A DNA stretch of 64,000 nt from a virus: positions 6,527 through 70,526 of the IMG/VR virus record IMGVR_UViG_3300050821_020196; one strand, written 5' to 3'. The notes beneath the pieces are model-generated. The model searched no databases and was not told where the DNA came from. It worked only from the letters and a program-made list of their open reading frames with translations. The translations under genes and the position numbers were made by a program. Numbering within the stretch: the first letter of the stretch is position 1; every line of letters starts with the position of its first letter. Of this stretch, positions 8,479-64,000 are shown piece after piece.

Positions 8479-8481
8479 GCT

Positions 8482-10320: not shown

Positions 10321-10329
10321 GGAGAGAAA

Positions 10330-11859: not shown

Positions 11860-11871
11860 TCCTAAATTTTT

Positions 11872-12309: not shown

Positions 12310-12321
12310 AGGGAAGACTTT

Positions 12322-13398: not shown

Positions 13399-13444
13399 AA
13401 ATTTCTTTCGGTTAGCATATACATACATTGATTAGCGACATGGT

Positions 13445-13480
13445 AAAACCCCCGGCGAGCGGTGCCGGGGGTTTTCTTTT
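13445..13480 (+). terminator. Rho-independent terminator after the capsid gene
   Basis: aaaacccccggc-gagcggt-gccgggggttttctttt. Confidence 0.85.
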
Positions 13481-13501
13481 GCCCCGGGGTAGTTATCCGG
13501 C

Positions 13502-13855: not shown

Positions 13856-13860
13856 ACCCT

Positions 13861-48445: not shown

Positions 48446-48561
48446 ACGCGAGAAGCTTCTTGTGTTCGACTCGTGACTCTTCTGCCTAAACCTGAGAAAC
48501 CGGTGGAATCTGTGGTTCCAACTTCTTTGACTAAATCCGCTCTGCCTACCATTCTACACTT

Positions 48562-49548
48562 ATGAAATCCCCAGTGAAAGTTGCTGTGACCGGGGCTGCC
48601 GGTCAGATTGGTTATTCGCTCCTGTTTCGCATCGCTTCCGGTTCAATGTTCGGTCCGGATCAACCGGTTGAATTGAAGTTGATCGAAATTCCGGAAGCCT
48701 TGAAAGCTCTTGAGGGCGTCGTGATGGAGTTACAAGACTGTGCGTTTCCATTGATCACGAAACTCTCCCCGACCTCTGATCTCTCGGAAGGTTTTGGCGG
48801 TGTGGACTGGGCTTTGCTGGTCGGAAGCGTGCCTCGTAAGCAGGGGATGGAACGCAAGGATCTCCTGGGGATCAACGGGAAAATATTTATTGGTCAAGGG
48901 CGCGCCATCGAAAAGAACGCGGCTCCCGACGTCCGTGTCCTGGTGGTTGGAAATCCGTGCAACACCAATTGCCTGATCGCGATGAACAATGCGAAAGGCG
49001 TACCAGCCGACCGCTGGTTTGCCATGACCCGGCTAGATGAAAATCGCGCGAAATCACAGTTGGCGGCCAAGGCTGGGACCCACGTAACGGCGGTCACGAA
49101 TCTGGCGATTTGGGGGAACCATTCCGCGACTCAGTACCCGGATTTCTACAACGCGAAGATCAACGGCAAGCCGGTGCCCTCCGTCATTCCGGACGAGAAC
49201 TGGTTGCAAAACACCTTTATTCCCGTTGTCCAGCAGCGTGGAGCCGCCATTATCAAGGCAAGAGGCGCTTCTTCCGCAGCCTCCGCCGCCAATGCCGTGG
49301 TTGACACCGTTCATTCTCTGGTAACGCCGACACCCGAGGGTGATTGGCACAGTGTGGGAATCTGTTCAGATGGCAGCTACGGAGTGGAGGAGGGGATCAT
49401 CAGCTCTTTCCCGATCCGCACCGCCGGTAACAACGGCCGCGAAGTGGTGCAGAACGTGATGTTGAATAATTTCAGTCGCCACAAGATCGACGCCACGGTT
49501 GGCGAGCTCCTGGAAGAAAAAGCCCTGGTTGCAGAGCTTCTTGGATAG
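48562..49548 (+). CDS. mdh: Malate dehydrogenase
   Basis: [34 protein letters not shown]. Confidence 0.97.
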
Positions 49549-49825
49549 CCTCGAGATCGTGATTGTGCTCGTGCTGTTATCAGGCTTGATCGAGGCCGGT
49601 CGGAGGCGCCGCTAAAGGAAGCAATCGAGCACGCACGACTGACAAGGGAGAATTAACGTTCCTCCGCAACACACCTTCGGGTGAAGGACAACCAGAAACG
49701 GAGACCCCTGATTTCCCCTTTCTGCGAGGAAGCCGACGGCATCATCCCACTGAAAACTGGCAACTGACACTGACAACTTTGATTGACTCCTCCCGAACTC
49801 GTAATATCTTCCGCTCTCTCGAAAC

Positions 49826-49898
49826 GCACCGCTAGCTCAATTGGCAGAGCAAGTGACTCTTAATCACTGGGTTGTTGGTTCGATTCCAACGCGGTGCA
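49826..49898 (+). tRNA. tRNA-Lys (CTT)
   Basis: Cloverleaf GCACCGC...CTCTTAA...GGTTCGATTCC...GCGGTGC A. Confidence 0.97.
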
Positions 49899-50011
49899 GT
49901 TCGGCCTCCAGAGCCGATTCGCGGTCTATCAAGACCGCTGACTGATCATCCAATCAAGGGCATTCAGTGCCCCTTTAGTGCCTCAACATTGAGCGTCAAG
50001 GGGGAGGCACC

Positions 50012-50725
50012 ATGAAGCCGATCCCCACGCTATCCGAACTGGAAAGCGCAGTCGAGCGACACAATCTGTCGTTTGTCGAAGCTGGCGAGGCCTTGGCCGA
50101 GATCCGAGCTTTCCGCTTTACCGAAATGGAAGGGTCGGAGGCCGAGGAACGGTTTGAGCAGGTGACCAGTTTTAGCAGCTTCCGCAACTATTGCCTGGCC
50201 AAGTGGGGTCTACCCTTCCAGCGAGTCAGGCAGTTGATCAACGCAGCGGAAGTCTTCCGCCTTCTGGAAGCCAAGAGGTCAACGCCCGTTGACCCCCTCC
50301 CCAAGACCGAGTTCACCATTCGACCGTTGACCGCTTTACGAATGCCAAGCGGCGAATTCGATGCCGAAGGTGCGCATGCCGTCTGGAACAAGGTGGTGGC
50401 CATCTTTCTCGGTAACCCCAGCGCCAAGCAAGTCGGCTTGGCCGTTCAAGCTTACAAGGCAGGTCGGCTGGACGGCCTCAAGGAGGAGCCAGCGGAGCCC
50501 GAGCTAAAACAGGAACCCGCTCCAACACCCGAGATAGAGGAGCCCGAGCAGGAGGAGGAGCCGGAACCCGAATCCGAATATACGGAGGCGCAGACCAAAT
50601 TACGCGAGACGCTAGCTAGCACCTTAGCTAAGGTAGTTGCTAGAATACAAAAATCTGGGGAGCTAACTGACGCGCAGATCCGCAGGGTAGTGCGAGATGT
50701 TCTGGAGGAGATGGGAGCCGGCTAA
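50012..50725 (+). CDS. Phage DNA-binding-type hypothetical protein (DUF3102-like)
   Basis: GEALAEIR...FRNYC..KWG...RQLINAAEV. Confidence 0.6.
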   Translation: MKPIPTLSELESAVERHNLSFVEAGEALAEIRAFRFTEMEGSEAEERFEQVTSFSSFRNYCLAKWGLPFQRVRQLINAAEVFRLLEAKRSTPVDPLPKTEFTIRPLTALRMPSGEFDAEGAHAVWNKVVAIFLGNPSAKQVGLAVQAYKAGRLDGLKEEPAEPELKQEPAPTPEIEEPEQEEEPEPESEYTEAQTKLRETLASTLAKVVARIQKSGELTDAQIRRVVRDVLEEMGAG

Positions 50726-50789
50726 CATAGGTTAGGCGGTCACACAACGCGAGCGCTGAGAGGAGGGGAAGGAGATCTCCTTGGGCGCA

Positions 50790-50818
50790 TTGACAACAGA
50801 CTCAGACTATGTTATAGT
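50790..50818 (+). promoter_or_regulatory. Sigma70-type promoter, probably leaderless
   Basis: TTGACA-17 nt-TATAGT, 5 nt before ATG 50824. Confidence 0.75.
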
Positions 50819-50823
50819 ATTAG

Positions 50824-51051
50824 ATGGACCAACGATACCTAGACACTAGCGATTGGCCGAAACAGGCTAATCTGACCGACTGGGCTCGCCTCTTAGGGCT
50901 CTCCAAGAATACAATGTATAAATATGTGGGCAACGGGAAGCTGCACACTAGCAAGCAGTTTAATGGCATTCGCCTGGCCACCCGCGAGGCGATTATGGCC
51001 TGCTGGAACATCAAGCATCGGGAGGTTAAGTCAGCGGAGGCGCGGCGGTGA
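50824..51051 (+). CDS. Excisionase/AlpA-like HTH protein
   Basis: WARLLGLSKNTMYKYVGNGKL. Confidence 0.75.
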   Translation: MDQRYLDTSDWPKQANLTDWARLLGLSKNTMYKYVGNGKLHTSKQFNGIRLATREAIMACWNIKHREVKSAEARR

Positions 51052-51321
51052 AGACTCCCAAGGGGAAACTACAAGCAGCGCCCGTTCCCAGCAAGAATAA
51101 GCCTATTAGGGCAAAGAAGCGCGGGAGGCGAAAATGAAGGCCAAGCCCAGCGTTAATACCGTAATCCACAGGCTGGTTAGGGACCTAGGGCGCATTCCGG
51201 AGGAGGCTTGCGAGGGCCAGGCCTACTTTTACATCGAATGGGAGCAAGTCAGACATAGCCTACGCGAGAGGCTCCGAGAGCGTCTCGTGGAAGTATGGTG
51301 CTCGGATTCAGAGGATTAGCT

Positions 51322-51820
51322 ATGAATGAAAAGTGGCTACCGGTCGTAGGCTATGAAGAACTATACCTAGTTAGTAACTTAGGGAGGGTTATGAGAATAG
51401 CCAGCGACACGAGCAGGACTAAAAGGCCTATCGCTAGGCTCAAAACAAGGCAGGCTGCTGAAACCGACTCTCCATCGGAGATACCTAGTAGTGACTCTAT
51501 TTAAAGAGACCAAAAGGAGGCAGCGTTTTATTCACCACATAGTAGGAGACGCATTTATCGGTCCAAGGCCTGCGGGTTGCCTACTGCATCACAGAGATGA
51601 GGATAGAATGAATAACAATGTGGGAAACCTTAAATACCTAACACCAGCAAAGCACAGTCTGCTTCACAACGCAATAATCTCACAGGAGGAAGTGACAGAA
51701 ATCAGGACACTAGCAGCGGAAGGCGTGCGACAGTGTGACCTAGCCAAGTATTTTGGGATTAGCGGCGGACACATTCACAGTATCGTCAGAAATAAACGGC
51801 GACGGGGAGGACGAGGATGA
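51322..51820 (+). pseudogene. NUMOD4-HNH endonuclease, frameshifted near 51450
   Basis: WLPVVGYEELYLVSNLGRV, then in another frame IHHIV..AF...HRDEDRMNN..NL. Confidence 0.75.
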
Positions 51821-51920
51821 GAAACTATGACCGGTTCCCTTATCATTACTGGCTAATAGCTATAATAGCCTATGCCCTGGCATTAACGGCAGTTATAATC
51901 AGCCTAACCAAGGCGAAACT

Positions 51921-52901
51921 ATGAGCAGGATTAGTAGGGCGTTTGATGAGCCGCTAGAAAAGCCCCCCTATTGGCCGATTAGGGACTATTGCGAGGCCGT
52001 ATTAGGGAGGCGATTCGGCGGTTGGGGCAGAGTCTTCGCTCATTGCCCCTTCACTTCGCCGGTGGACGAGGGAGGAGGCAAAGCCTTTGTGATAGACGAG
52101 GCCTTCAACAACGCCACTTGCTTCGGACAGTGTGACAGGAAGACTTGGACCCCTTTTGACCTACATCGGGAGGTGTTTCAGTTCCCGAACTGGAAAGCCG
52201 CACTAGCGGACTTTAAGGCGCGGCTGGGGCATAATGTAGCCACAAATCCCTCTCCCCTGCCTGAACTAACTAGGAGGCCTCCTCCGGAGAGCAAAGCCGA
52301 CAGGGGACTAATAGCGAAGAAATTGGCGGAGCAGGCAAACATAACAGCGGTCAAGATAAGGAACATCGGGGAGGACGGAAGAGCAGAGAGAGAATTAGTG
52401 GCATTATGGGGAGAGGCGCGATTGGCGATCGCCCAGAGTTACCAGAGCGTGTTTGTCGGTGAAACCGCCAAACGGTGGCTGAGAAATGAGCGATTAGCGA
52501 GGCGAGTTCAATTCCTCTGCTGCTGGTCGATTAAGGAGGGGCATAACTGGGTGACCAATCGGACGGTGGAGGAGCCGATTATGCTAGACATAGAGTTTGA
52601 CGACGAACCGGAGCCGGACAACCAGTTGCGACTAATCTGGGCGCTACGGAAGAGTTGGAGGATGTGGAAGATACCGCTATTTAGCATCTGCTGGTCGGCT
52701 GGTAAGAGTTACCACGCGCTCTTTTATGTTAGAGGTTGTAGCGACAGTGACTTGGAGTTGTTAAGGGGAGGAGCGGCTAGGTTAGGAGCCTGCGAGGCCT
52801 CTATGAGGCCTCACCAATGGGTTAGGTTTCCGGGGGGCTGGCGACCGGGGAAGGGTAGGCAATCAGTGTTATACTTGAAGGGGGACTTGCTAGGAGGCTG
52901 A
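51921..52901 (+). CDS. Primase-like protein (Zn finger plus AEP/RepB-like domain)
   Basis: CPF...CFGQC; IEFDD, SAGKSYH, VRFPG. Confidence 0.75.
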   Translation: MSRISRAFDEPLEKPPYWPIRDYCEAVLGRRFGGWGRVFAHCPFTSPVDEGGGKAFVIDEAFNNATCFGQCDRKTWTPFDLHREVFQFPNWKAALADFKARLGHNVATNPSPLPELTRRPPPESKADRGLIAKKLAEQANITAVKIRNIGEDGRAERELVALWGEARLAIAQSYQSVFVGETAKRWLRNERLARRVQFLCCWSIKEGHNWVTNRTVEEPIMLDIEFDDEPEPDNQLRLIWALRKSWRMWKIPLFSICWSAGKSYHALFYVRGCSDSDLELLRGGAARLGACEASMRPHQWVRFPGGWRPGKGRQSVLYLKGDLLGG

Positions 52902-52979
52902 GAGTGTGTTAGATTAGCTGCGGCTATGACAGGCAACGACCAACTAACGAAAGGAACTAGTAAACGATGAAGGAGAACT

Positions 52980-54203
52980 ATGAAAGATGGAAAAAGTGGA
53001 GCGCCGGGGGCTATACCCGACGCCCACGACAATGAAGGCAACTATGACGGCCCCAATGTACCATACAAAAAAGCGTCTGTCAAGTTAGGCCGAAGGGAGG
53101 CCTCCTCAGGGGGTCTTAACAGCCACTCGGACTCGTTCCGAGTAGTAGGGGAAGTGTTAGCAAGCGAGAAGCAACTAGCGGAACAGTTTCGCCAGGAATT
53201 CGGCGCTAGGCACCCGAGCGAGATGGAGGACGAGATGCCTGAGCAGGCTCTGGAAGGCTTGCTCTACCGGCAGCAAGTAATGATGATTAGCGGGGGAGCC
53301 AAGCGTTATAAGTCCTGGGTGCTGGCTCAACTAATTGTGTGCGTGGCGACAGGGGCAGACTTCCTAGGCTTCCCGGTAAATAAAGGCAAAGCGCTATACA
53401 TTAATCTTGAACTGTTTGAAGCTGAAGCGAAGAACCGGCTGAGGCTAATTAGCAAGGCGATGGGTTTCGCTAAGATACCGGAAAATAACATCGATGTGGT
53501 TAGTTTCAAGGGTAAGAAACTAACAACCGCCAAGTTGATGAAATACGCAGAGGGAATGCGAGCCGCTGGCTATGTGCTAGTCGTGGTTGACCCCATCTAT
53601 AAACCTTACATAGGAAGGGATGAGAACTCCATAGAGGGCGTGTCGGGTATCTTACACGAGTTTGAAGTGCTAGCGATGGCTATCAACGCATCGGCTGTCT
53701 TTGCTCATCACTTCTCCAAGGGGCCACAAGCCTATAAGGAAGCGATGGACCGAGCGTCAGGGAGTGGCGGGTTCAGCCGTAGTCCTGACACACTGCTAGC
53801 ACTAACCAAGAACGAGGCGGAGAAGGGAATAACCGTGGAAATAGACTTACGCAGTTTCCCGCCGATTAAGCCATTCGGCATCAGGCATAGGTTCCCTATC
53901 TTTGAGCGGGACGACACCATAGACCCTGCGAAGGTAGTGGACCGGGAGAAGAAGCCACGAAAGCACCCTGACGAGTTAATGTTGATACCGCTGAGGGTAA
54001 AGCCGGAAGGCCTACGCTATACCGAGTGGTTTAAGGCTATCAACGGCGGGAAGAAAGTCATCTCCGATTCACAGTTTGAGCGTCGAGTGAAAGAATTGAA
54101 GCAAGAGAAGAAAGTCGTCGTTGGGATTAACAAGTGTTACAAAGAGGCGGAGGCGGTGGAAGTCGCACAGTTTGTTGAGGGTCTTGGGGGTGACCAGTCG
54201 TGA
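52980..54203 (+). CDS. AAA_25/RepA-like replicative helicase
   Basis: GGAKRYKS, YINLE, VVVDPIYK..DEN, HHFSKG, DRASGSG. Confidence 0.9.
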   Translation: MKDGKSGAPGAIPDAHDNEGNYDGPNVPYKKASVKLGRREASSGGLNSHSDSFRVVGEVLASEKQLAEQFRQEFGARHPSEMEDEMPEQALEGLLYRQQVMMISGGAKRYKSWVLAQLIVCVATGADFLGFPVNKGKALYINLELFEAEAKNRLRLISKAMGFAKIPENNIDVVSFKGKKLTTAKLMKYAEGMRAAGYVLVVVDPIYKPYIGRDENSIEGVSGILHEFEVLAMAINASAVFAHHFSKGPQAYKEAMDRASGSGGFSRSPDTLLALTKNEAEKGITVEIDLRSFPPIKPFGIRHRFPIFERDDTIDPAKVVDREKKPRKHPDELMLIPLRVKPEGLRYTEWFKAINGGKKVISDSQFERRVKELKQEKKVVVGINKCYKEAEAVEVAQFVEGLGGDQS

Positions 54204-54240
54204 TACGTATTATTAAGAAAGCGAAATACGTGGCACGATT

Positions 54241-54366
54241 CACCCCCAGCACCCCCAGCACCCCCAGAGAACCCCCAGGGGGTCCACTAAGTAAACTAAG
54301 CGCTGCTGGGGTGGGGGGTGAAACTTCCGTTCACCCCCAGCACCCCCAACGCCTTAGAGGGGGTGG
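54241..54366. repeat. CACCCCCAG iteron cluster, candidate replication origin
   Basis: Direct copies at 54241, 54250, 54259, 54332; variants at 54270, 54341; inverted GGGGGTG copies; directly after the helicase. Confidence 0.7.
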
Positions 54367-54393
54367 TGGTAAAGAGGGTAGACGGAGACAGTT

Positions 54394-54808
54394 TATGATA
54401 AAGAAAAGCAGAAGACAACAAGCAACGGTTCCCGACAACTGCCACATCTGGGGCAATGACGAGGAGGAAGCCGCACGGCCAGTGGAGAAGCAACTAGACC
54501 CCAAGGTGAGGGAGGCACTAGGGGTAATGGCGGATAAGGTAAGGGGTAGGGCCAGGGAGCGAACCGATGAGTTAAAGGAGGAACTGGCAGGGATAATAGG
54601 GGTATTTATGGAAGATTACCCTAATTGCAGCCGACACGATTACTTGCGGGGACTGGGGACCAGTTGGGACGGACTGCTGAGTAAACTGTGTGAGGCTCTT
54701 TATCAGCACATCGGTGATGTTGATGTGGAGCGCTCAGCCAGAAACCTAAGCGATAAGATACTGGCCTTGGAGAAGCCGGTGCGCATCAAGCGTCAAGGGA
54801 GAGATTAG
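54394..54808 (+). CDS. Hypothetical protein
   Basis: C-terminal part of the 54200-54808 ORF, from ATG 54394 with GGAG upstream. Confidence 0.5.
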
Positions 54809-55114
54809 TGGCGTGGCGCAAACTGCGGGGGAGACAGGAAGGACCCGAGCAGCGACTTGCGGGAATAAAGGGTCCTGCCCCGCATTGGGCTACGAATCAC
54901 GCTGCGACGCGGCCACTGCTCTGGCCTATTCCGTAACCAAAAAGCGAATTATGAAGAAACGAGATAAGAGGAAGCGGGAGCACGGCACGCACCCAGAGAC
55001 GGCTCGCCGTCGAAAGGCCAGAAGCGAGAGGTGGAGGAAGGCTCTGGCCCCTGAGCCTGAAAGAGAGGACAAGCCATAAAACTATTAATGTAGCACCGGT
55101 CTAACATAAATATT

Positions 55115-55633
55115 ATGAAACCACAAGCACGCGAGATTGAAGAGTTCAGACGCAGCCTGCTATCGGCGGAGTCGTTTCGCGCCTTAGCGAATGATGAATG
55201 GCCTCCTGACCTACGGAAGGCTCTTAATAATAGCGAGGCTTCGGGGCTGGATGTTGATAAATATATAACGATGGTTCGCATCGTCGCGATGAATAGATTT
55301 CTGCTGAACCATAGCAGCATCGCCTTTCTAGTCCATACTAATGTCGGCTCTCACGGGAAGGAGAGTCTCGTCCATCCGATTAAACCCTTGGTCGACAAGA
55401 CCATATACCAGCGCGGTCAGTCAATGACCGGGGTCAACTTTGACCTAGCAGCCGTGCGGCTGCACCCTGAGAGCGGAGACTACCTGCTGGTCTGTTCATA
55501 TAGAGAGGACATTAACCTGATTGAAGCCGCTCCTGCTGAGCCTTGGTTGGGAGGCGAAATAAGGGAGCCAGGCACTCCTGAGGGCTTCGTGCGGCTGGCG
55601 CTGGCCCTTTGCGAGATAGATGCTGCCGGTTAG
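55115..55633 (+). CDS. Hypothetical protein
   Basis: 172-aa ORF downstream of the cos-like site. Confidence 0.6.
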   Translation: MKPQAREIEEFRRSLLSAESFRALANDEWPPDLRKALNNSEASGLDVDKYITMVRIVAMNRFLLNHSSIAFLVHTNVGSHGKESLVHPIKPLVDKTIYQRGQSMTGVNFDLAAVRLHPESGDYLLVCSYREDINLIEAAPAEPWLGGEIREPGTPEGFVRLALALCEIDAAG

Positions 55634-55742
55634 GGCTTTCCGAGGGGGAGGGCCAAGAGGAGAGCAGGCCTCTTGGCCCCAAGCAGGAACTAACTGTTTA
55701 ACAGCGAAAGAGTCAGCTTATGAGTTTGACTCACCCACACTT

Positions 55743-55816
55743 TAACATTGGCCTAGCCTTTTGTCAAGGGTCCGTGGAAGCGCAGGCTTGACAAAAGGCT
55801 AGGCCAATGTTAGATT
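55743..55816. promoter_or_regulatory. Perfect 26-bp inverted repeat forming back-to-back sigma70-type promoters
   Basis: Arms 55743-55768 and 55787-55812; TTGACA-17-TAGATT (+) and TTGACA-17-TAAAGT (-). Confidence 0.75.
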
Positions 55817-55952
55817 GTGGGTTGCCACTCTCTGTTAAGTAACTGGTGGCGTTCCTTCTTGGGAGGAGGGGCGCTGCCGGTAAGAGAGACCGGGGAGGGG
55901 GCAGAGCAGGAATAGAAGACTAACATTAAACATATGAAAGACGATTGCGCTT

Positions 55953-57140
55953 ATGAGAAAGCAGACAGTTAGGAGAACGGAAAGCGGCTGGCAAGAGTTC
56001 GCCCAACAGCAGCAGCAGGAGAACGGAGTCCAAGCCGGTCAGCGACCGCGAGTGGGCCAGAGAGCAGACAATGGCGCTCCGCGTTATACTAATGCGGATA
56101 TGGTAGTGCTAGGCAATTCCTTTGACACTAATAGCATCATCGAGGCGATTCAGCGCTGGATACCGCCAGCGCACTGGTTTATGGACCAGTTCTTCCCCTT
56201 CGACCGGATTAGTGACAGTGACCTAATAACCCTGGATTATTATAAACAGGGGCGGTTAGTCGGGGGTCACATCCATCCGGCTAAGAGAGGGTTGGCCAGA
56301 CCGCGAAAGCCCTATTTCACCAGCACCTACTCGCCTCCTCCCATCAAACTGGTTAGGGACTTGGATGCCCAGAGCCTCGCGAAAAGACGGATAGGCCGTA
56401 ATGCCTTTGAGGGCTCCCCCGATGACGGGGCTATTCTGGCCGAAGATACCACGGAACTGCTCAACGAAATCATTAATGCCCACGAACTAATGTGTGCTCA
56501 GTTAATGATGACCGGCCAACTAATTATTGAGGACTGGGACGATAGAACAGTCATTGATACTATAACCCTGCCGGGAGTGCCTAATAGCGTGGTGGTAGCA
56601 GACGCGGATAAATGGGACAGGCCTAACAGCCCTTCGCCCTTCCTGCTCATCAAGGCTCTTCAAAGAATGATTAGCGGCTCGATGGGCGACTCCGCCGACA
56701 TTATCTGTATGGGGAGCGCAGCGGCTGATGCTTTTGAAGAACATCCGGAAGTCAAGGCAGCCTATAATTTGCTATTTTTCCGCCAAGGGATGCTTCGAGC
56801 TACTGAGACGGAGAATACGGCGGTTTACTCGCTAGGGGACTACCGGGGGGTTCCTATTTATGTCAACGAGCAGAGTTATCTGGACCGGGACGGTAACACC
56901 AAGCCGTTTTTCCCGCCGGACACGCTGCTGGTGGCTAGCCGCAAGCAGTTTGGACTAATGGCCTTCGCCGCTTGTTATCAGACGGAGCCCGAGACTAATA
57001 GTGTAGAAGCGATTGCTGCGAAGTATGCGCCACAATACTGGCTCGACCACGGAGCCGACTGTCGCCGCTTCCGACTTCAATCAAGGGGTTTACCCTGCCT
57101 TCACGATGCTGAGTCGTTTGTCGTCGCCAAAGTGGTTTAG
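55953..57140 (+). CDS. Major capsid protein E family (satellite)
   Basis: DTNSIIEAI..FMDQFFP..RRIG; aligns by eye with the prophage capsid. Confidence 0.9.
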   Translation: MRKQTVRRTESGWQEFAQQQQQENGVQAGQRPRVGQRADNGAPRYTNADMVVLGNSFDTNSIIEAIQRWIPPAHWFMDQFFPFDRISDSDLITLDYYKQGRLVGGHIHPAKRGLARPRKPYFTSTYSPPPIKLVRDLDAQSLAKRRIGRNAFEGSPDDGAILAEDTTELLNEIINAHELMCAQLMMTGQLIIEDWDDRTVIDTITLPGVPNSVVVADADKWDRPNSPSPFLLIKALQRMISGSMGDSADIICMGSAAADAFEEHPEVKAAYNLLFFRQGMLRATETENTAVYSLGDYRGVPIYVNEQSYLDRDGNTKPFFPPDTLLVASRKQFGLMAFAACYQTEPETNSVEAIAAKYAPQYWLDHGADCRRFRLQSRGLPCLHDAESFVVAKVV

Positions 57141-57170
57141 GAGCAGAACTAACAACAATAGAGAAAGGTA

Positions 57171-57635
57171 ATGTTTATTATGAGTGTTACACCGAGGAAC
57201 GCGGAGAACCCGCAAGCGCGGATGTGGACCGGCTGGCAAGGCGCAGCCGCTAGTCCTACCCCTGACCAAGACATCTGGGGAGCGCAGATAGTAGGGAAAG
57301 TCATCAAATCGGCCACAGTTAGCCAGGACATTGAAGGGGTGATGCCGCGAGGCTCTATCCTGACGGTAGACCCCGCTAGCAGCAAGTGCGTCTTAGCGAC
57401 TGACGCCGCTGACCCTAACCTAGTAGGGGTGCTGGTCCACGACCTAGTGTTTACCGCTGACGAAACTGGCAATAACATTATTGACCAGACGGGGGCTATT
57501 GCTAAAAGTGGCGTCTTCCGGATGGACGCGCTAGTCTGTGGCGCTCCTGCTACGGTCCCGCAGTTTGAAGCGCCTCTTAGGATAAAAGGCATTTACTGCG
57601 AGGGCGCCTCCATTTACCCAGCGACCGGACCATAG
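57171..57635 (+). CDS. Head decoration protein (satellite)
   Basis: MPRGSIL, VGVL, SGVFRMDAL, LRIKGIY. Confidence 0.8.
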   Translation: MFIMSVTPRNAENPQARMWTGWQGAAASPTPDQDIWGAQIVGKVIKSATVSQDIEGVMPRGSILTVDPASSKCVLATDAADPNLVGVLVHDLVFTADETGNNIIDQTGAIAKSGVFRMDALVCGAPATVPQFEAPLRIKGIYCEGASIYPATGP

Positions 57636-57646
57636 GAGGAACGATT

Positions 57647-57985
57647 ATGGACCTTGAAGAATTAGAGCGCTATAACTCGGACTTAGTGGCGGAGATTAGG
57701 GCTGATGCTGCCCTAGCGGAGCGCGAGCGTCAACAGCAGTTAGATGAGATGTTAGCCCCCGGCTGCGAGGCGATTATTGCCAAGGCGCGGAAAGACCCCT
57801 CGGTTAGCCCAGAGTCAATCGCCTTGGACTGCTTGAAGGCTTTTCAGGCGACCAGCGACTCTGACCAGCGGCTTAATGCGCTTAAACGCGATGCTGCTAG
57901 CGCCAGCAAACCGCCAGCCGGTGACGCTCCCCGATGGAAAGCCATTGTGGCTCAGGCTAACGCGAACGGTCGTCGCAGCAGATAG
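57647..57985 (+). CDS. Stand-alone capsid scaffold-like protein
   Basis: ERER..APGCEAIIAKARKD..IALDCLKA matches the C-terminus of the prophage ClpP-scaffold. Confidence 0.75.
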   Translation: MDLEELERYNSDLVAEIRADAALAERERQQQLDEMLAPGCEAIIAKARKDPSVSPESIALDCLKAFQATSDSDQRLNALKRDAASASKPPAGDAPRWKAIVAQANANGRRSR

Positions 57986-57992
57986 GAGTTTT

Positions 57993-58289
57993 ATGCCTTA
58001 TAAAGTGATTAAGGCCTTCTGGACCGGGAGCCGCATAGTAAGAGCGGGGGTTCTCTTGGAAGAGCCTCCGGAGGATGAAGCCTTTGGGGACTGCGTTCAG
58101 GAAATAGGCGAGCCGGAGGCCAGCGCGGAGGAAGCCGGGGTCGGCCTCTCTGAGGCGGAGGCTGAACCGGAGCCGGAAGAACCGGCTCCTGTGGCCAAGA
58201 CTTGGCAAAAACCCTCGCCTAAGCCTTCGTTCAAGCCAGCGGCTATCGGGAGCGTCTCCAAGCACAAGCACAAGTTAAGGGCCAGATGA
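57993..58289 (+). CDS. Small acidic/Pro-rich head-associated protein
   Basis: GGAG RBS and ATG 57993 (MPYKVIKAFW); follows the capsid cluster. Confidence 0.55.
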   Translation: MPYKVIKAFWTGSRIVRAGVLLEEPPEDEAFGDCVQEIGEPEASAEEAGVGLSEAEAEPEPEEPAPVAKTWQKPSPKPSFKPAAIGSVSKHKHKLRAR

Positions 58290-58892
58290 GCGATTGCGCT
58301 GTATATGCCGGGTGTGATGACGCACTAAGTTGGCCGTATGGCTTAGTGCGTAGGTATCAAGAGGGCTGCTCTGAGCCGCTGACCCCAGCCACGAGGAGGG
58401 GTCGTCGTAATGTCCGTCTGCCTTCCGGTTGCGCTTTGGGGGGTCAGCCGGTAGGGTCAGACCCTTCGGACAGCAGAGGCGTTCTTCTTGGCTCCTTCTT
58501 GGGGGTCGGCTGGCGGATACAGCATAGAGCGTGCCACACACAAGTTGGTGCGGCGCATTACTAACATTCGAAAAGCGTGTTAGGTATTAAAGCAATGGCC
58601 TACCGGCGAGGGCGAAGCAAATACAAGCGCTCCAAGCGCCCACGCCAGCCGCAGCACGCGTGGAAGGCTGCGAAGGAGAGCCGGATGCCCCGCGTAAGGA
58701 ACGGCCAGCCGCTAGAAAAGCAGAACCTATTCTATGTCTAGAATAACCATTAACACCAGTTAATAAATATGAACAAAAAAACCCAAACTAACCTGCCGGT
58801 TAAACTCGCTAAGCCTAACATCAAGGAACTGGAAAGGATGCGGAGGGAGGCTCCCTTACCAAGCAAGAAAAAATGACGCCTACCCAGATGTT

Positions 58893-59159
58893 ATGAACGA
58901 GATAATAGGCAGGTTAACGCCAGTTATCGAAGCGACGGTTGACGAAGGCCTAGTCATCCACGACGCGGCTATTCGGGGAGTCCTCCGCCTGAGAGCGCTA
59001 GGAGGCGACCGCTATGAAGTCGACCTAACGGGCTGCTTGCTCCTTCCGTTGAGCGCAGAGCAGCGCTATGTCGAGCACCCAGCGGCTAGGCCTGGGAGTC
59101 AGCCGGTCTTCCTTGCTGCGCAGCCGGTCCCGGTTAAGCCGCTTGCTGTGAAGGCTTAA
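58893..59159 (+). CDS. Hypothetical protein
   Basis: 88-aa ORF. Confidence 0.45.
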   Translation: MNEIIGRLTPVIEATVDEGLVIHDAAIRGVLRLRALGGDRYEVDLTGCLLLPLSAEQRYVEHPAARPGSQPVFLAAQPVPVKPLAVKA

Positions 59160-59255
59160 CATCAGCTTAAGGCTAAGGCTTGCTCCCAAGTCATCGGTCG
59201 GGTAAAGCCCTGACCGATTTCATTATACTAACCAACCCTAACTAGCGAGCAATCC

Positions 59256-59504
59256 TTACAGTTCGACATCAGGATAGCCATCGCTAACAAAGTGGTGCCT
59301 ATAGTGCGCAATACAGATACGCTTCGCCTCCTCTAAAGAGGAGCAACCGTCTGAAATTCCAAGACCAGACATGCTGCTAACTGGCCAATACTGGCCACCA
59401 TTTTCAGAAATTGTGTACTCATACTCTTCAGAGAACTTCCACGTCCACGCCTTCTGGTATTTCCCATCTCGCCAGCCAAACGAGTCTTGCCAATCAACTT
59501 TCAT
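59256..59504 (-). CDS. Hypothetical protein
   Basis: SLEEAKRIC..H motif, common in small phage proteins. Confidence 0.5.
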   Translation of the reverse strand: MKVDWQDSFGWRDGKYQKAWTWKFSEEYEYTISENGGQYWPVSSMSGLGISDGCSSLEEAKRICIAHYRHHFVSDGYPDVEL

Positions 59505-59544
59505 TTCTTCGATCCAAGCAATTCGTTACCCCACACCTCGGTTT

Positions 59545-60519
59545 TCAGAGGTCTTCCGTCGGAGGAAACAGCTGGGACTGTTCCGCCCTATGACCTGGAA
59601 TAAACTCCAAGACTTCTTTGACCTTATAATGCGTTACATATTCCCCCTTGGAATTTTTGCGTTCAATCATTTCAAGTCTTACTTTGTAGGTGTCGCCAAC
59701 AGACACCCCTCCACGGGCCATAACATCCGCAGCGATGGTACTCTCTCCTATGTCAATAATTTCTACCCTGTTGTTAAATTTAAACTTCCATTTTTTAGGC
59801 TTTGTAGCCAGTGTGCAATTGTGAACAACGATGTGCGCGGTGACAATTTGTGGCTCTACGGTGTCTGTGTCGGTAGTGGATACACGCAATGCCCTTGCGC
59901 TCGCAGCGTCTATCGTTAACTGACGTTTGTTCTCATAAATAAAAGACTGCTCGGTTATTCCATAGGATTCCGATACAGGATTCGTCATTGTCTTTACACT
60001 CTCGATTACTTTGGGATCTTTCGAAAGCTTGTATACCGGTTCCGGGATATTCATGTTGATGATGGTAGTGTTGTTATCACCCTTAACACGAACGTTAACC
60101 GTGGGGCCGTTAACACTAGTTTTAGTCTCGGCTGATTCCTCTTTGCGATTTCCTTTCCACCAAAGGTATGGGATAAGGCCTCCGCCAATCGTTTTAATAA
60201 ATCCAAGAAATTCTAGGATGTGTTTGGCGTTTTCTACATTTAGTTGCGGGAGCAAAGCGGCGGCGGCATCCCATGCCATTTGAACCACCGATAGTTGCAG
60301 CGTCACGCAACTAGCGTCTACATCCGCGCTCAAGAGAACCGTTACTTGCGCCTTTTCGCCATTCAAGACAAAGTTCGCTTGCTTGCAGAGTTCTCCAAAA
60401 GCAAGCAAAGAAGGAGCCAAAAGCGTCACGTCCATTTGATGGGACTTCAACTCTGGGCCATCAAATTTTATCATTAACACCGATTCAACCGCTTTGGCAT
60501 GCTCGGGAAGGGGAGCCAT
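59545..60519 (-). CDS. Accessory protein of unknown function
   Basis: 324-aa AT-richer ORF next to the integrase; DGP...HQMDV..LAPSLLA.GEL. Confidence 0.8.
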   Translation of the reverse strand: MAPLPEHAKAVESVLMIKFDGPELKSHQMDVTLLAPSLLAFGELCKQANFVLNGEKAQVTVLLSADVDASCVTLQLSVVQMAWDAAAALLPQLNVENAKHILEFLGFIKTIGGGLIPYLWWKGNRKEESAETKTSVNGPTVNVRVKGDNNTTIINMNIPEPVYKLSKDPKVIESVKTMTNPVSESYGITEQSFIYENKRQLTIDAASARALRVSTTDTDTVEPQIVTAHIVVHNCTLATKPKKWKFKFNNRVEIIDIGESTIAADVMARGGVSVGDTYKVRLEMIERKNSKGEYVTHYKVKEVLEFIPGHRAEQSQLFPPTEDL

Positions 60520-60593
60520 CTCACAGGATTTATGACTTTTGAAAACCTCATGTCAACCAAAATTGAGCTTGATGTGGCGAATGTTGGTTTCAT

Positions 60594-61802
60594 CTAGGTT
60601 AAGGGCAGACAAGGCGGGGTCTTTTGCTCGGCTGGCGAGAGCGGAGGCGGATAAATAGCCCAATAGTGTTCCGCTTCAGAGTACGGCGTGCCACCGACAT
60701 AATGCTTGAAGCTGACCACTGTGGAGGTATGGCCCAAGATGAGGGCCAATTGATCCAGGCGCTGGTGATAGTTAACCCAGTTAGTCGCAAAGCTATGGCG
60801 CAAAGCATTCTGTGGGTATTTCAGCTGATGCGGAGCTGTCGCTGCTGCCCAATTAGCCTCGCGGGCGGATCGCAGGGTCTGAGGGGTAAAAGGTACTAAT
60901 TGTCCCGATCGATGAGGCTGGCAGCGTTCTAACCAAGCGAGGGCATTATCGCTAATCGGCGGAAAACGCTTAACACCGGTTTTGCTAATAGCTGCCGGTA
61001 CGATGATCTCCTTTCGGTCCAGATTGAGGTGATCCCAAGATAGCCTCTTCATCTCGGCTATGCGAATGCCGGTAAAGAAGCCGACCGTGAGAATTGGGAG
61101 AAGCTCGAGCCGATGATTAAGCGCGTCTAATAGCATCGCTTCCACCACAGGGTTCGAGATAATCTCAGGCTCCTTGGAGCGGCGATGGCGGAATTCGAGG
61201 CGAAGCGCAGGATTAGCCTTCAGCCAACCTTTCTTGGCTAGGCCCCAATTTAGGACCGCTCGTAGGTAGCGCAAATCAGCATTATATTGAGCGTCTGGGA
61301 GGGGTTGTAAGACGACTGCGCAATCCTCAGCAGTTAAGTCACAAGCGGCTTTGCGCAGCAGGCCTGCAGCTTCGAAGCGACGCTTGCAGTAGGTTATTTT
61401 CAGCAGATAATCGTCCGTCTTGTGATCTCGCGCTTGGATGTACTCCTCAAAAAGTCGCCCGAGCGGAACGCTTGAGGATCGATCGCGCACGGCAGCGATG
61501 TATTGTTCAATGATGCTGAGGGGCGAGGTTTTGATCCCGGCTTCGCGGAGGAGTTCCAAGGCGGTATCCGCCTCGGCCATTTCATGCGGCGTGAGGGCAT
61601 TGAGACCTCGGCCATGCCAGTGAATCCGCTTCTTCATTTGCTTGGAAGCTTTCAAGGCCTCCTCGCGGCTGGCGAAGATCAGTCGAGAGCGCTTCCCGGT
61701 CTTACTGACCGCAGGCGGAATATTCAAGATCCAGCGCTGGCGCTTGGCGTCGAAGTGCGGCGAAAGATTAAATCGGAAGCTCATTGGTTTTTTCTTTGAC
61801 AA
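60594..61802 (-). CDS. Tyrosine integrase of the satellite
   Basis: GIRIAE, SKTG, LRHSFAT, LGH...HY. Confidence 0.93.
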   Translation of the reverse strand: MSKKKPMSFRFNLSPHFDAKRQRWILNIPPAVSKTGKRSRLIFASREEALKASKQMKKRIHWHGRGLNALTPHEMAEADTALELLREAGIKTSPLSIIEQYIAAVRDRSSSVPLGRLFEEYIQARDHKTDDYLLKITYCKRRFEAAGLLRKAACDLTAEDCAVVLQPLPDAQYNADLRYLRAVLNWGLAKKGWLKANPALRLEFRHRRSKEPEIISNPVVEAMLLDALNHRLELLPILTVGFFTGIRIAEMKRLSWDHLNLDRKEIIVPAAISKTGVKRFPPISDNALAWLERCQPHRSGQLVPFTPQTLRSAREANWAAATAPHQLKYPQNALRHSFATNWVNYHQRLDQLALILGHTSTVVSFKHYVGGTPYSEAEHYWAIYPPPLSPAEQKTPPCLPLT

Positions 61803-61906
61803 GTGCCCTCAGTGCCCTCATTTTTAACACACGCTGACCTGTAACACAAGTTAGCGCGTGCTAAAGCTCCTTGGAAACGAGGGAAATGCGAAATATGACC
61901 ACGTAT

Positions 61907-61948
61907 CTCTTAATCACTGGGTTGTTGGTTCGATTCCAACGCGGTGCA
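61907..61948 (+). repeat. att direct repeat (3' half of tRNA-Lys)
   Basis: ctcttaatcactgggttgttggttcgattccaacgcggtgca, identical to 49857-49898. Confidence 0.97.
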
Positions 61949-62432
61949 TCCCTCAACGCCAACGACTTATCAGAATGGAGCGGTTGATGGGCAACATCGT
62001 TATTGGCGTCTTCTTGGCTTAAAAGCGAAGTTCCGAAAACCGCGCCGGTTATTGATGCGATCATGGCCTCCATCCTCAAGAGCCGCTCCATCGAACCTAC
62101 ATGGACTACGACGACAATCCATCCGTTGAAATGCTGTTTCGACAGGCTTCAATGACGGCACACACTTACTTTCACGAAGCAATTGAAGCTATTGATAGTT
62201 GCTTCGGTGAAGGATACGCCCAAGAACATCCAGAATTAATCGGCGCTTTTATGCAGACTACCGCGCTCGATCGTGGTCGCGGGACTGTCCGCAATAGGGT
62301 TTACTACAAGAAGTCCGGGTGCACCTGGAACCGCTTGCGAAAATTACTTGCCCCGAGTCGGATCCGCAAGTCGTGATCCGGCCCTTCCACGGCACACTTG
62401 AAAGCGAGAACACCTTTGCTACTGGTGGCAAG

Positions 62433-62991
62433 TCATTCGGTATAGCCAAAGACCTGGGCGTCGGGCCGTTTAAGGAGGAATTCATTCGCAAACTTCTGGA
62501 CGAACGAATCGTCCATCGGCGAGTTAACGCCGCTCTGGCAAATGAACAACTTGACTTTCCCGTTGAAATCCAAGGGGAGGGCTTCCTTCTCAACATTCAG
62601 CAGCATTTGCTCCACCTCATAAGGCTTCAAGTAGCTCGCTGAGTTCGCAACCACACCTTCTGGGTAGATTCTTACTACCGGCGTGTTTGTTGGGATCACA
62701 GTGGCCCACGACGTAAGAGTTGATGAAGCTCGCCTTCTTCCTCCTTGTGGAGGTCTTGAAGTTGCTTCTTGCCCGCGCCATCCCAAAAAACGACTTCAAA
62801 TGTCTGCTTGGCCGCCTTTTCCTGCTCCACCTGAGCCGGATTGAACGGCGGCTTCAGATCCTTGGCCGTGTTTTAGAGGTCTTCGACGCTTTATGGGTTC
62901 TTTTCCCATAGGAGTCGGCCCACTCCTCGACATCTTTGGCCGTAACTGGGCACGCACTCTTCGGCCAGGGGACGTAGATGATTCTTCTCAT
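62433..62991 (-). pseudogene. Fragmented C80-like cysteine peptidase domain protein
   Basis: IIYVPW, YVVGHC and KLFICQSG..SFVQKFA..VFGY lie in different frames. Confidence 0.4.
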
Positions 62992-63589
62992 GGGATCCCT
63001 CGTTGAACTTGGGCCATCTGGCAGAAGGACAGTCATTCTTGCGGCCTTGACTCTGCCGAGGTTGAGCGCATCAAGGTCGAAAATGGCCGGGGATCAGCCG
63101 CCCGTCCCGATAGATGGAACCCTAAGGGAGTGAAAGGACAGGGGCCAAGAATAATCCACCCTGCCGGAACCGACTTGGCCGGGTTGCTGGAGCAGCTCCA
63201 GGCCGATCAGGGAGAACGATTCCACTGGCCGCTGTTCTCCTACGATGAGTCTTACCCCACCTATGCGTGGACTAGGGCGGCTGAGGCTTTTTACGATGAC
63301 CGGCATAAGGACCGGTTGCGTTGCGAGGAGGAATTGAATCGGAGACGGAGAGTAGCTTCAACCACCCCATGATCGGCATTGACAAGCTCACCTCGGCTGA
63401 CGTTGGCAAATGGATTGTCTACTCGATCCTGCCGCCCTGCCGCGATCGCGGACGGCTCAAGAGCTGGACCAAGCAATTCGTCTACGTGGTCTTCCGCTGC
63501 GGTGGGAACTGGGCCGATTACACCGATTACACCGCAGCGCCTACGTTGCCGGAATATCTGGATTTCCTCTCCCCAACGGTCTCGGAGAA

Positions 63590-63935
63590 ACTCGCACTTT
63601 ACGGTTGCACAGCAGCGTTATCCGGGCGCGAACATCTAACGCTACTTGTCGGAAAGGAAGAGATCGCCTTGGCTTTCATCCGTCACTTCGGCTCCATAAA
63701 AGCGTTGTCCCGCGCTTCCCTTTACCAGCTCCGCCAATTCCTGCCCGCCGTAAAGCCAAGGCGGTAATGGCTGCCTTCTCTGTGTCTATGATCGCAGAGA
63801 GTGAGCATGCTCGTTCTCAAATCTTCGATAATCCGGAATCGGTGTATCGCGCCTGCGCCGATATGAAACTTTTTAGTCAGGAAGTCCTTCGATGTGTGCT
63901 CTTCGATACAAGACAACGCTTGATCTCCTGCGATA
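63590..63935 (+). pseudogene. radC: RadC-like fragment
   Basis: IRHFGSIKALSRAS..L, then after a frameshift FDNPESVY..QEVLRCVLFDTRQRLI. Confidence 0.6.
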
Positions 63936-64000
63936 TGGACGGGGCTTTGGTTGACTACAATAAGCCCTCGTCCATCATAGATAGAAAAGGACTAACGATA

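What the first reader, a model, noticed from the sequence alone, without database searches (positions are those of the whole stretch)
49857..61948. Shell-only satellite: own capsid E, decoration D and scaffold, but no terminase, portal, protease or tail
Seen: a 12,050-bp att-bounded element with integrase, Xis-like HTH, primase, helicase and iterons (PICI-like), plus capsid, decoration and scaffold genes in the reverse of the prophage order (protease-scaffold, D, E). Known: P4 and SaPIs use scaffolds, some cos PICIs use one capsid homologue (Ccm), and cf-PICIs encode a full HK97-type head with portal and terminase. A lambda-E-type three-gene shell kit fits none of these. Inference: it builds small capsids and borrows portal, terminase and tail from a GpA-type helper, possibly the prophage 8 kb away. 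The capsid ORF also has a ~45-aa Gln/Arg-rich N-terminal extension that the prophage capsid lacks.
Basis: partly seen in the sequence, partly recalled or inferred. Interest (0 to 1): 0.87.

Follow-up and report, generated by a model that had tools for sequence, protein, structure and literature searches.

The report
PICI-like satellite with capsid, decoration, scaffold
A 12-kb mobile island in a soil verrucomicrobial genome carries its own phage capsid, capsid-decoration and scaffold-like genes but no DNA-packaging motor, portal or tail, which makes it a probable phage parasite of a type already known from E. coli, with some new features.

Summary
A 12,050-bp island lies between a 42-nt exact repeat of the tRNA-Lys 3' end. 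It has an integrase, a weak HTH gene, an AAA_25 helicase with iterons behind it, a lambda-E-type capsid gene, a D-like decoration gene and a 112-aa ORF that aligns with the C-terminal part of the neighbouring prophage's ClpP protease. No portal, large terminase, protease or tail gene was found. The 'primase' label could not be confirmed.

The novelty claim does not hold. The prototype Gram-negative PICI, EcCICFT073, carries capsid then head-decoration genes in the same order, also without portal or terminase (Fillol-Salom 2018; CFT073 annotation). There, deleting either gene changed neither transfer nor interference, and the DNA was packaged in phage-sized heads. 'Builds small capsids' is therefore unproven.

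What looks new is the host phylum (Verrucomicrobiota, Chthoniobacterales), the free-standing scaffold-like gene, a conserved ~55-aa N-terminal capsid extension, and capsid-then-decoration loci of a second clade in 5 of 401 related genomes. One of those has a replication gene and an integrase; one has a GpA terminase.

This scan noted capsid-plus-decoration islands before, on other DNA (Dehalococcoidia, E. coli thrW). Nothing specific ties the element to the prophage 8 kb away.

The parts
49826..49898 (+). tRNA-Lys(CTT); its last 42 nt (49857-49898) are the left att core
   Evidence: ARAGORN; Rfam tRNA 68.6 bits; repeat
50012..50725 (+). 237-aa ORF of unknown function with an acidic Pro/Glu-rich linker
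   Evidence: No family at E<=0.01 except a low-complexity hit. ESM Atlas feature hits of 0.94-0.96 go to unnamed clusters; one carries DUF3102 in 16% of members, which is a lead only.
50790..50818 (+). sigma-70-like promoter (TTGACA-17-TATAGT, 11 of 12) in front of the HTH gene
   Evidence: a consensus match only
50824..51051 (+). 75-aa HTH protein (AlpA/Xis-like, weak)
   Evidence: HTH_17 E 4.4e-5, 24.1 bits, below the cut-off of 27
51295..51820 (+). HNH endonuclease gene of homing type, split into two overlapping frames (51295-51504 NUMOD4; 51491-51820 HNH_3)
   Evidence: phrog_59 profile positions 135-168 and 180-273 fall in the two ORFs.
51921..52901 (+). 326-aa ORF upstream of the helicase; the 'primase' label is unverified
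   Evidence: No family hit. One homologue, P0155, at 63%. AF2 pLDDT 38.
52980..54203 (+). AAA_25 (RepA/DnaB-like) replicative helicase
   Evidence: PF13481 5.7e-20; phrog_2597 1.9e-52
54239..54353 (.). iteron cluster (CACCCCCAG units, direct and inverted); probable origin
54395..55633 (+). three unassigned ORFs (54395-54808, 54813-55079 basic, 55115-55633)
   Evidence: No family hit. For the 172-aa ORF, Atlas features give 0.91 to clusters with PF27228, a lead only.
55733..55822 (.). 36-nt inverted repeat (94%, 18 nt apart) holding two divergent sigma-70-like promoters; the rightward one faces the capsid operon
55953..57140 (+). major capsid protein, lambda gpE family, with a ~55-aa N-terminal extension
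57171..57635 (+). head decoration protein (gpD-like)
57647..57985 (+). 112-aa scaffold-like protein, homologous to the C-terminal part of the prophage ClpP protease
   Evidence: the gene position is conserved in L003 and L005
57993..59159 (+). small unassigned ORFs at the end of the rightward operon (57993-58289 acidic/Pro-rich, 58286-58564, 58577-58741, 58893-59159)
   Evidence: no family
59193..59218 (+). terminator-like hairpin (10 pairs) ending the rightward operon
   Evidence: a consensus match only
59545..60519 (-). 324-aa accessory gene. PADLOC names the family a defence candidate (PDC-S42); NCBIfam names it a LAPAL-motif putative phage structural protein
   Evidence: PDC-S42 1.9e-36; NF053583 1.9e-35, over the cut-off; phrog_3243 7.7e-27
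60594..61802 (-). tyrosine integrase
61907..61948 (+). right att core, an exact copy of the tRNA-Lys 3' 42 nt

Best explanation
The element is an integrated phage satellite of the PICI type in a soil bacterium of the order Chthoniobacterales (Verrucomicrobiota).

Shown:
- It sits in the 3' end of tRNA-Lys between exact 42-nt att cores.
- It has its own tyrosine integrase.
- It has a helicase with an iteron cluster directly behind it.
- It has a separate rightward operon, preceded by a promoter-bearing inverted repeat and ended by a hairpin. The operon encodes a lambda-gpE-type capsid protein, a gpD-like decoration protein and a 112-aa protein that matches the scaffold-like C-terminal part of a ClpP-type head protease.
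- It has no portal, large terminase, protease, tail or lysis gene.

Inferred:
- After induction by a helper phage it excises, replicates from the iterons and is packaged by the helper's terminase through the helper's portal into a head that gets a helper tail.
- The shell genes either build or co-build that head, or reshape the helper's head. The capsid gene needs its own decoration and scaffold partners because it is only about 22% identical to phage capsids of the same family.
- The helper should have a lambda-type head and packaging module. The prophage 8 kb away is one candidate, not a demonstrated one.

The architecture is that of the E. coli PICI EcCICFT073 (capsid, then decoration, no portal or terminase). 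The element adds a scaffold-like gene and an N-terminal capsid extension.
For: - att repeats, tRNA and integrase.
- Helicase and iterons.
- Capsid, decoration and scaffold-like genes.
- No portal, large terminase or protease in six frames outside the prophage. No such family among the 20 ORFs.
- The three-gene order E, D, scaffold-like recurs at 58-66% capsid identity on metagenome contigs whose other genes differ. All three genes are seen in L003 and L005, the only 2 of the 6 contigs that reach past D. The order is therefore a conserved module, not a random deletion product.
- In 5 of 401 genomes of the host's order, a second clade of E-type capsid genes (27-33% identity) occurs at 11 places. 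In 6 of the 11, tblastn found a decoration gene just behind the capsid gene.
- One of these loci (L100) has a DUF3854/DUF3631 replication protein, capsid, decoration and an integrase.
- None of the 5 genomes has a PF05136 portal. Only 1 has GpA terminase over the cut-off.
- Printed precedent: EcCICFT073 is a proven, lambda- and phi80-mobilised PICI with capsid and head-decoration genes (PMC6092414 passages and section 13; record annotation). PmCI172 has a capsid homologue and makes small heads.
Against: - No excised or circular form, and no empty site, was seen. The runs hold only short contigs.
- No cos or pac site shared with the neighbouring prophage was found.
- No small terminase subunit or Rpp-like gene was recognised.
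- The HTH regulator hit is below Pfam's cut-off.
- An HNH gene inside the element is frameshifted, so some decay is present.
- In the second clade, 5 of 11 capsid places carry stop codons, 2 more are fragments, and one is flanked by IS elements. Such modules often decay.
[quoted passage not shown] That speaks against the shell genes being needed for transfer.
- 4 of the 5 genomes with second-clade loci show no lambda-type portal or GpA terminase, so no resident helper is visible there. These are genomes of unknown completeness.
Confidence: 0.62

Rival explanations
1. It is a satellite, but the shell genes do not build its heads. They are dispensable or serve another end, such as interference with helper capsid assembly (as Ccm does in SaPIbov5) or a decoy. 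The element would then be packaged as multimers in full-size helper heads.
For: - In EcCICFT073, all packaged DNA was phage-sized, and deleting c1499 or c1500 changed neither interference nor transfer (PMC6092414 section 13; PMC6893505 passage).
- Four copies of 12,050 bp make 48.2 kb, close to a lambda-sized genome. This is arithmetic; the helper's genome size was not determined.
- Ccm is a capsid homologue that redirects helper capsid shape (PMC8569155, abstract in the listing).
Against: - Three cognate shell genes, kept intact and in the same order at 58-66% capsid identity across different backbones, suggest selection on a working assembly unit rather than a single poison subunit.
- At 22% identity to the only candidate helper's capsid, co-assembly with that capsid seems unlikely.
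Confidence: 0.2
2. It is a decayed remnant of a lambda-like prophage that lost its portal, terminase, protease and tail genes by deletion and kept an integrase and some head genes.
For: - The frameshifted HNH gene.
- Many unassigned small ORFs.
- Second-clade capsid loci in related genomes are often broken or IS-flanked. L102 is a 7-kb att-bounded piece with a capsid gene and no integrase found.
Against: - The att cores are exact and the integrase, helicase, capsid, decoration and scaffold-like ORFs are intact.
- The gene order E, D, scaffold-like is the reverse of the prophage order, and it recurs in relatives preceded by non-structural genes. A deletion would not produce that.
- The element has a plasmid-like helicase-iteron replicon typical of satellites.
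- The layout matches a proven PICI.
Confidence: 0.12
3. It is a self-sufficient portal-less mini-virus or an encapsulin-like compartment system, like the 'twilight' mini genomes with only a capsid protein and a scaffold.
For: Aguilar et al. 2026 (PMC13669383; abstract, sections 8 and 9, and passages of 14 read) describe 5-11.6-kb entities with integrase, RepA or helicase, an HK97-fold capsid protein and a scaffold, and no portal, terminase or tail. They leave open a non-satellite way of life.
Against: - The capsid here is a plain lambda-E-family protein (PF03864 is the only Pfam family hit) with a gpD-like partner, as in tailed phages.
- No cargo-like or rolling-circle Rep gene was found.
- No way to pack or deliver dsDNA without a portal is known for this capsid family (established knowledge).
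Confidence: 0.05

Closest known systems
EcCICFT073-type Gram-negative PICIs (E. coli CFT073; Fillol-Salom et al. 2018, PMC6092414; Fillol-Salom et al. 2019, PMC6739421)
   Same: - An island of about 11-12 kb with integrase, small HTH regulator, primase/helicase-type replication gene with the origin behind it, then major capsid protein followed by head decoration protein and a few small ORFs.
- No portal, terminase, protease or tail.
- The capsid belongs to the same family: BLASTP 1e-10, 22% identity. 3bqw from CFT073 is the best PDB sequence hit.
- A lambda-like prophage lies about 10 kb away in CFT073 too.
   Different: - No sequence relation beyond the capsid family.
- The decoration protein and the ORF behind it are not detectably related.
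- This element has a scaffold-like gene related to a ClpP-protease C-terminus and a conserved N-terminal capsid extension.
- The integrase lies at the far end on the opposite strand.
- The host is a verrucomicrobium.
- No Rpp or cos site was recognised.
- For EcCICFT073 the shell genes were shown to be dispensable for transfer. Nothing has been tested here.
PmCI172 (Pasteurella multocida PICI; PMC6092414, PMC6893505 passages)
   Same: It encodes a major capsid protein homologue and lacks a full head module. Small heads were seen by EM.
   Different: Its helper is a Mu-like myovirus. The role of its capsid homologue is untested. No sequence was compared here.
cf-PICIs (capsid-forming PICIs)
   Same: The satellite encodes its own capsid protein.
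   Different: cf-PICIs also encode a portal, head maturation protease, head-tail connectors, large and small terminase and HNH, and steal only tails (PMC10690885 passage; PMC10085698 passages). Here portal, protease and large terminase were sought and not found.
SaPIbov5 Ccm
   Same: A satellite-encoded homologue of the helper's capsid protein.
   Different: It is a single gene of the HK97 type, with no decoration or scaffold partner. It acts by co-assembling with the helper capsid protein (abstract in the listing).
'Twilight' mini genomes with only capsid protein and scaffold (Aguilar et al. 2026, PMC13669383)
   Same: Integrase, helicase or Rep, capsid protein plus scaffold, and no portal, terminase or tail.
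   Different: Those are 5-11.6 kb, mostly from human gut, with encapsulin-like capsid domains, and no decoration protein is mentioned. Their supplements could not be seen, so overlap with E-type elements is unknown.

Membership tests
PICI (as defined in PMC10085698 and PMC6092414) | Integrase and att sites; size about 10-15 kb | tested here: met
   12,050 bp, 42-nt exact cores, PF00589 integrase
PICI | Regulation module (alpA, merR or stl homologue) | tested here: inconclusive
   HTH_17 24.1 bits, below the cut-off of 27
PICI | Primase-replicase module with the origin directly 3' of it | tested here: met
   AAA_25 helicase matching the helicase part of phrog_2597; iterons at 54239-54353. The separate 'primase' ORF is unverified.
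PICI | Capsid morphogenesis gene | tested here: met
   E-type capsid homologue, as in EcCICFT073
PICI | Small terminase subunit, Rpp, or a copy of the helper's cos site | tested here: not met
   No such family among the 20 ORFs. No DNA match to the prophage above chance. Small divergent proteins could be missed.
PICI | No tail, holin or portal genes | tested here: met
PICI | Induction by a helper phage and high-frequency transfer in phage particles | not testable with these tools
   Needs culture or virion data. Contigs of 4 runs showed no joint across att, which is not informative.
cf-PICI | Own portal, head-tail adaptor or connector, and large terminase | tested here: not met
   Six-frame PF05136, PF04860, PF05876 and PF03354 found only prophage copies or nothing. 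No ORF is long enough apart from the helicase, capsid and integrase.
P4-like satellites | Psu-Delta-Sid operon | tested here: not met
   No hit to such families in Pfam or PHROGs for any ORF
Lambda gpE capsid family (PF03864) | Full-length match over Pfam's cut-off, and the fold | tested here: met
   102 bits against a cut-off of 22.9, profile positions 1-329 of 329; Foldseek hit to lambda capsid, TM 0.79 by target
Lambda gpD head decoration family | Family-model match | tested here: inconclusive
   phrog_49 7.2e-8, and a profile of 8 relatives hits gpD chains at E 0.0011. Pfam HDPD gave no hit for this ORF.
Nu3-like or protease-C-terminal scaffold | Homology to the C-terminal, scaffold-like part of a head protease; action as a scaffold | tested here: inconclusive
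   Homology to the prophage protease C-terminus is shown. That this part is a scaffold, as Nu3 is in lambda, rests on recalled knowledge. No model hit was found.

The most novel reading that the evidence does not exclude
Chthoniobacterales carry a graded series of lambda-E-type satellites that own different shares of the head. Some have capsid plus decoration only (L100). This element has capsid, decoration and a free-standing scaffold. One has capsid, decoration and a GpA terminase but no recognised portal (L104). On this reading, the element assembles its own small shell around a stolen portal. It would be an intermediate between classical PICIs, which reshape helper capsids, and cf-PICIs, which steal only tails. 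The conserved basic and Gln-rich N-terminal extension of the capsid protein would act inside the shell, for example as a built-in scaffold or size determinant.
Probability: 0.22. Interest if true: 0.7.

Novelty: new variant of a known kind. Interest (0 to 1): 0.45.

Why it matters
PICIs with a capsid and a decoration gene have been in print since 2018, yet what those genes do is unknown. In E. coli they were dispensable with the helpers tried. Here the capsid gene is kept with cognate decoration and scaffold partners in a distant phylum. Related loci carry less or more of the head-packaging set. Together these give a comparative handle on an open question: do such satellites make their own shells, and with which helpers? 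The element would also extend phage satellites to soil Verrucomicrobiota; my searches found no paper describing one there. Its DNA occurs in soil metagenome runs.

Tried and rejected
The longer contigs that hold the closest capsid (P0002, 8,264 bases) and the only homologue of the 326-aa ORF (P0155, 11,268 bases) could not be fetched. A viral-contig scan with P0155 found nothing.
- **Scans with the capsid.** The viral-contig scan found nothing. The genome-contig scan with alignment A4 found nothing.
- **Mdh loci.** None of the 80 loci of related genomes holds any protein of the element. Only 3 of the 80 have the same tRNA-Lys nearby, and the right flank is not conserved, so no empty site could be shown.
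blastn of the element against the prophage gave only chance-level matches; the best was 37 nt at 78%, E 0.018, inside coding regions. I treat the cos reading as unsupported, not as refuted.
- **The 112-aa ORF.** The 'longer' protein search gave no hit. PHROGs at E up to 5 gave nothing useful.
- **Complex prediction**, capsid with the 112-aa protein: no answer, score 0.00. This is not evidence either way.
- **AF2 of the 326-aa ORF** without an alignment gave pLDDT 38, so no fold search was made.
- **ESM Atlas** for the 172-aa and 237-aa ORFs gave leads only.
- **Sequencing runs.** No RNA holder is listed. In contigs of runs X1-X4 laid on 47000-64000, the listed pieces on the element had 0 other letters. 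No joint across att, no circle junction and no empty site was seen. The contigs are a few hundred bases long and break at the repeat, so this says nothing about excision. X1 (share 0.91) may be the source sample.
- **L102**, Pfam on 10 ORFs: only a SnoaL-like protein.
- **EcCICFT073.** hhalign of the decoration and scaffold profiles to the EcCICFT073 neighbours gave no relation. tblastn of all the element's proteins against the island at E<=0.1 gave no real hit, not even the capsid. BLASTP of the pair gave 1e-10.
- **Supplementary files** of papers were not opened. Those of PMC13669383 and PMC10085698 may list E-type elements.

Full report
**What is there.** The window is part of a 70.5-kb IMG/VR record. 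ARAGORN finds tRNA-Lys(CTT) at 49826-49898. The last 42 nt of that tRNA recur exactly at 61907-61948, within a 52-nt repeat of 92% identity and 12,050 spacing. Between the two copies I read these features:
- a 237-aa ORF of unknown function;
- a strong sigma-70-like promoter match at 50790;
- a 75-aa HTH protein (HTH_17, below the cut-off);
- an HNH endonuclease gene of homing type, split over two frames (NUMOD4 at 51295-51504, HNH_3 at 51491-51820);
- a 326-aa ORF without any family;
- an AAA_25 helicase (5.7e-20; it matches the helicase part of phrog_2597 at 1.9e-52);
- an iteron cluster of CACCCCCAG units in both orientations at 54239-54353, directly behind the helicase gene;
- three unassigned ORFs;
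- a 36-nt inverted repeat at 55733-55822 whose arms each hold a promoter-like site;
- a capsid gene (55953-57140), a decoration gene (57171-57635), a 112-aa ORF (57647-57985) and some small ORFs;
- a terminator-like hairpin at 59193;
- on the other strand, an 82-aa ORF, a 324-aa gene and the integrase (60594-61802).

**The shell genes.** The capsid protein matches PF03864 over the whole profile (102 bits) and phrog_29 (3.1e-40). Its AF2 model, built from a 46-row alignment, has pLDDT 84.4. Its best PDB fold matches are the capsid proteins of YSD1, Chi and lambda.

The decoration protein hits phrog_49 (7.2e-8) and the prophage's D (3e-5). A profile of eight such proteins finds lambda gpD first in the PDB (E 0.0011). 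Pfam's HDPD model did not hit it.

The 112-aa ORF has no family model. It does align from its first to its last residue with the last 127 residues of the prophage's 509-aa ClpP-type protease, counted from an internal Met. Identity is 32% overall, and 43% over 44 residues with E 2e-8. By analogy with lambda, where Nu3 is nested in gene C (recalled knowledge), this is a free-standing scaffold-like domain.

**What is absent.** No ORF hits a portal, terminase, protease, connector, tail or lysis family. Six-frame searches of the whole record with PF05136, PF05876 and PF00574 find one place each, all in the prophage. PF04860 and PF03354 find none. Only the helicase, capsid and integrase exceed 326 aa. 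A small terminase subunit or another small packaging factor among the unassigned ORFs cannot be ruled out.

**The N-terminal extension.** The family domain starts at residue 58. The 55-57 residues before it are Gln-, Arg- and Gly-rich. They are conserved at protein level in all 4 related contigs that include the gene's start, so they are very likely translated. AF2 gives them low confidence, with one short helix. The prophage capsid and the second-clade capsids lack the extension. Other E-family proteins with long N-termini look like signal or membrane segments and are unrelated.

**Host and neighbours.** Malate dehydrogenase next to the element is 69-84% identical to that of Verrucomicrobiota MAGs, mostly Chthoniobacterales. 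Upstream lies a prophage with GpA terminase, lambda-type portal, ClpP protease, D and E in the usual order, an integrase and tRNA-Glu. The two capsid proteins share 22% identity. The two elements share no DNA above chance.

**Relatives.** HMMER against 1.8 billion representatives finds 792 proteins at E<=0.001, but only 12 at E<=1e-30. Close relatives (58-66% identity) were found on six short metagenome contigs only. On the two contigs that reach far enough, the order is capsid, decoration, scaffold-like ORF. Upstream genes differ from those of the window and include a family-A-polymerase-like fragment read by eye on L004.

In 401 genomes of the host's order, 5 have capsid matches, at 11 places and 27-33% identity.
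- At 6 of the 11 places, tblastn finds a decoration gene right behind the capsid gene.
- 5 of the 11 have stop codons and 2 are fragments.
- L100 has a DUF3854/DUF3631 replication protein, small ORFs, capsid, decoration, cargo and an integrase. Only 4 of its ORFs were scanned.
- L101 is flanked by IS21 and DUF772 transposases.
- L102 is a 7,072-bp piece bounded by a tRNA-Ala repeat, and no integrase was found in it.
- L104 has an integrase, HTH, AAA_25 helicase, capsid, a weak HDPD match, a 185-aa ORF and a GpA terminase next to tRNA-Leu.
- None of the 5 genomes has a PF05136 portal. Only the genome of L104 has GpA over the cut-off. The completeness of these genomes is not known.

**Prior art.** A note of this scan on Dehalococcoidia elements (e1-2145547) pointed to 'an island with capsid and decoration genes (2018)'. 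I read the paper. Fillol-Salom et al. [quoted passage not shown] They also report that all packaged DNA was phage-sized, and that deleting either gene changed neither interference with lambda nor transfer by the resident prophages (section 13).

The CFT073 record shows the island as integrase, HTH, small ORFs, DNA primase family protein, SSB, PerC, a small ORF, major capsid protein (351 aa), head decoration protein and three hypothetical ORFs, then phoQ. A lambda-like prophage lies about 10 kb further on.

The window's capsid matches the CFT073 one at 22% identity, E 1e-10. PDB 3bqw, from the same strain and of the same length, is its best solved relative by sequence. I did not check letter by letter that 3bqw is c1499.

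Other papers bear on this:
- Dokland's review notes that PmCI172 also has a capsid-like protein and makes small heads, and that EcCICFT073 has a capsid homologue but is packaged in large heads with lambda (PMC6893505 passages).
- De Sousa et al. 2023 list 'capsid morphogenesis' as a PICI core component, and define cf-PICIs by portal, connectors and terL (passages).
- Aguilar et al. 2026 describe portal-less mini genomes with only a capsid protein and a scaffold.

**Reading.** The element is best read as a PICI-type satellite with EcCICFT073-like architecture. Its claim of a category without precedent is not.

What differs from the printed cases:
- the third shell gene;
- the extended capsid N-terminus;
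- the position of the integrase;
- the lack of any sequence kinship beyond family level;
- the host phylum.

Whether the shell genes build small heads is open. The conserved three-gene unit argues for a working assembly module. The E. coli deletions argue that such genes can be dispensable with the helpers tried. The neighbouring prophage has the right kind of head and packaging genes, but no specific tie to the element was found.

**Scores.** Interest is 0.45. This is a credible, intact satellite in a phylum without described satellites, and it offers a useful comparative series. Its kind is already in print, and no mechanism is shown here.

Noticed in passing
L104 (G212:C5:86000-105999), about 3900-13870: A roughly 10-kb stretch has an integrase, HTH repressor, AAA_25 helicase, E-type capsid, a weak gpD-like ORF, a 185-aa ORF and a GpA large terminase, ending at tRNA-Leu. 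No portal was recognised. The same genome has 5 GpA places but no PF05136 portal. It may be a satellite that owns capsid and terminase but not portal.
   Followed up: partly
window 51295-51820: A homing-type HNH endonuclease (NUMOD4 plus HNH_3) is split over two overlapping frames. This is a frameshift or an assembly error. The laid contigs showed no indel there.
   Followed up: partly
window 59545-60519 (-): Two libraries name this accessory gene in conflicting ways. PADLOC calls the family defence candidate PDC-S42 (1.9e-36). NCBIfam calls it 'LAPAL motif-containing putative phage structural protein' (1.9e-35).
   Followed up: no
window 55733-55822: A 36-nt inverted repeat (94%) has arms that each carry a TTGACA-17-TAnnnT promoter-like site, facing outward, just upstream of the capsid operon.
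   Followed up: partly
L102 5370-12823: A tRNA-Ala and a 27-nt copy of its 3' end 7,072 bp away enclose an intact E-type capsid gene and a SnoaL-like gene. No integrase was found. Two ~190-bp tandem units that repeat the att region follow.
   Followed up: partly
L008 1-1607; protein P0004: One relative's capsid gene starts only at about residue 210, right behind helicase-like and zinc-finger-like ORFs. P0004 joins a metallo-beta-lactamase-fold N-terminus to a capsid N-terminal part. These are truncated or chimeric copies, or assembly artefacts.
   Followed up: no
L111/L112 (E. coli CFT073, NC_004431.1 1377930-1430000): EcCICFT073 lies about 10 kb from a lambda-like prophage at icd that has terminase, portal and an S49 protease. 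This mirrors the satellite-next-to-prophage layout of the window.
   Followed up: no
window 10330-11859: The prophage's ClpP protease has a long acidic N-terminal region of about 180 aa before the protease domain. It also has an internal Met at 11476 from which a Nu3-like nested product could start.
   Followed up: no
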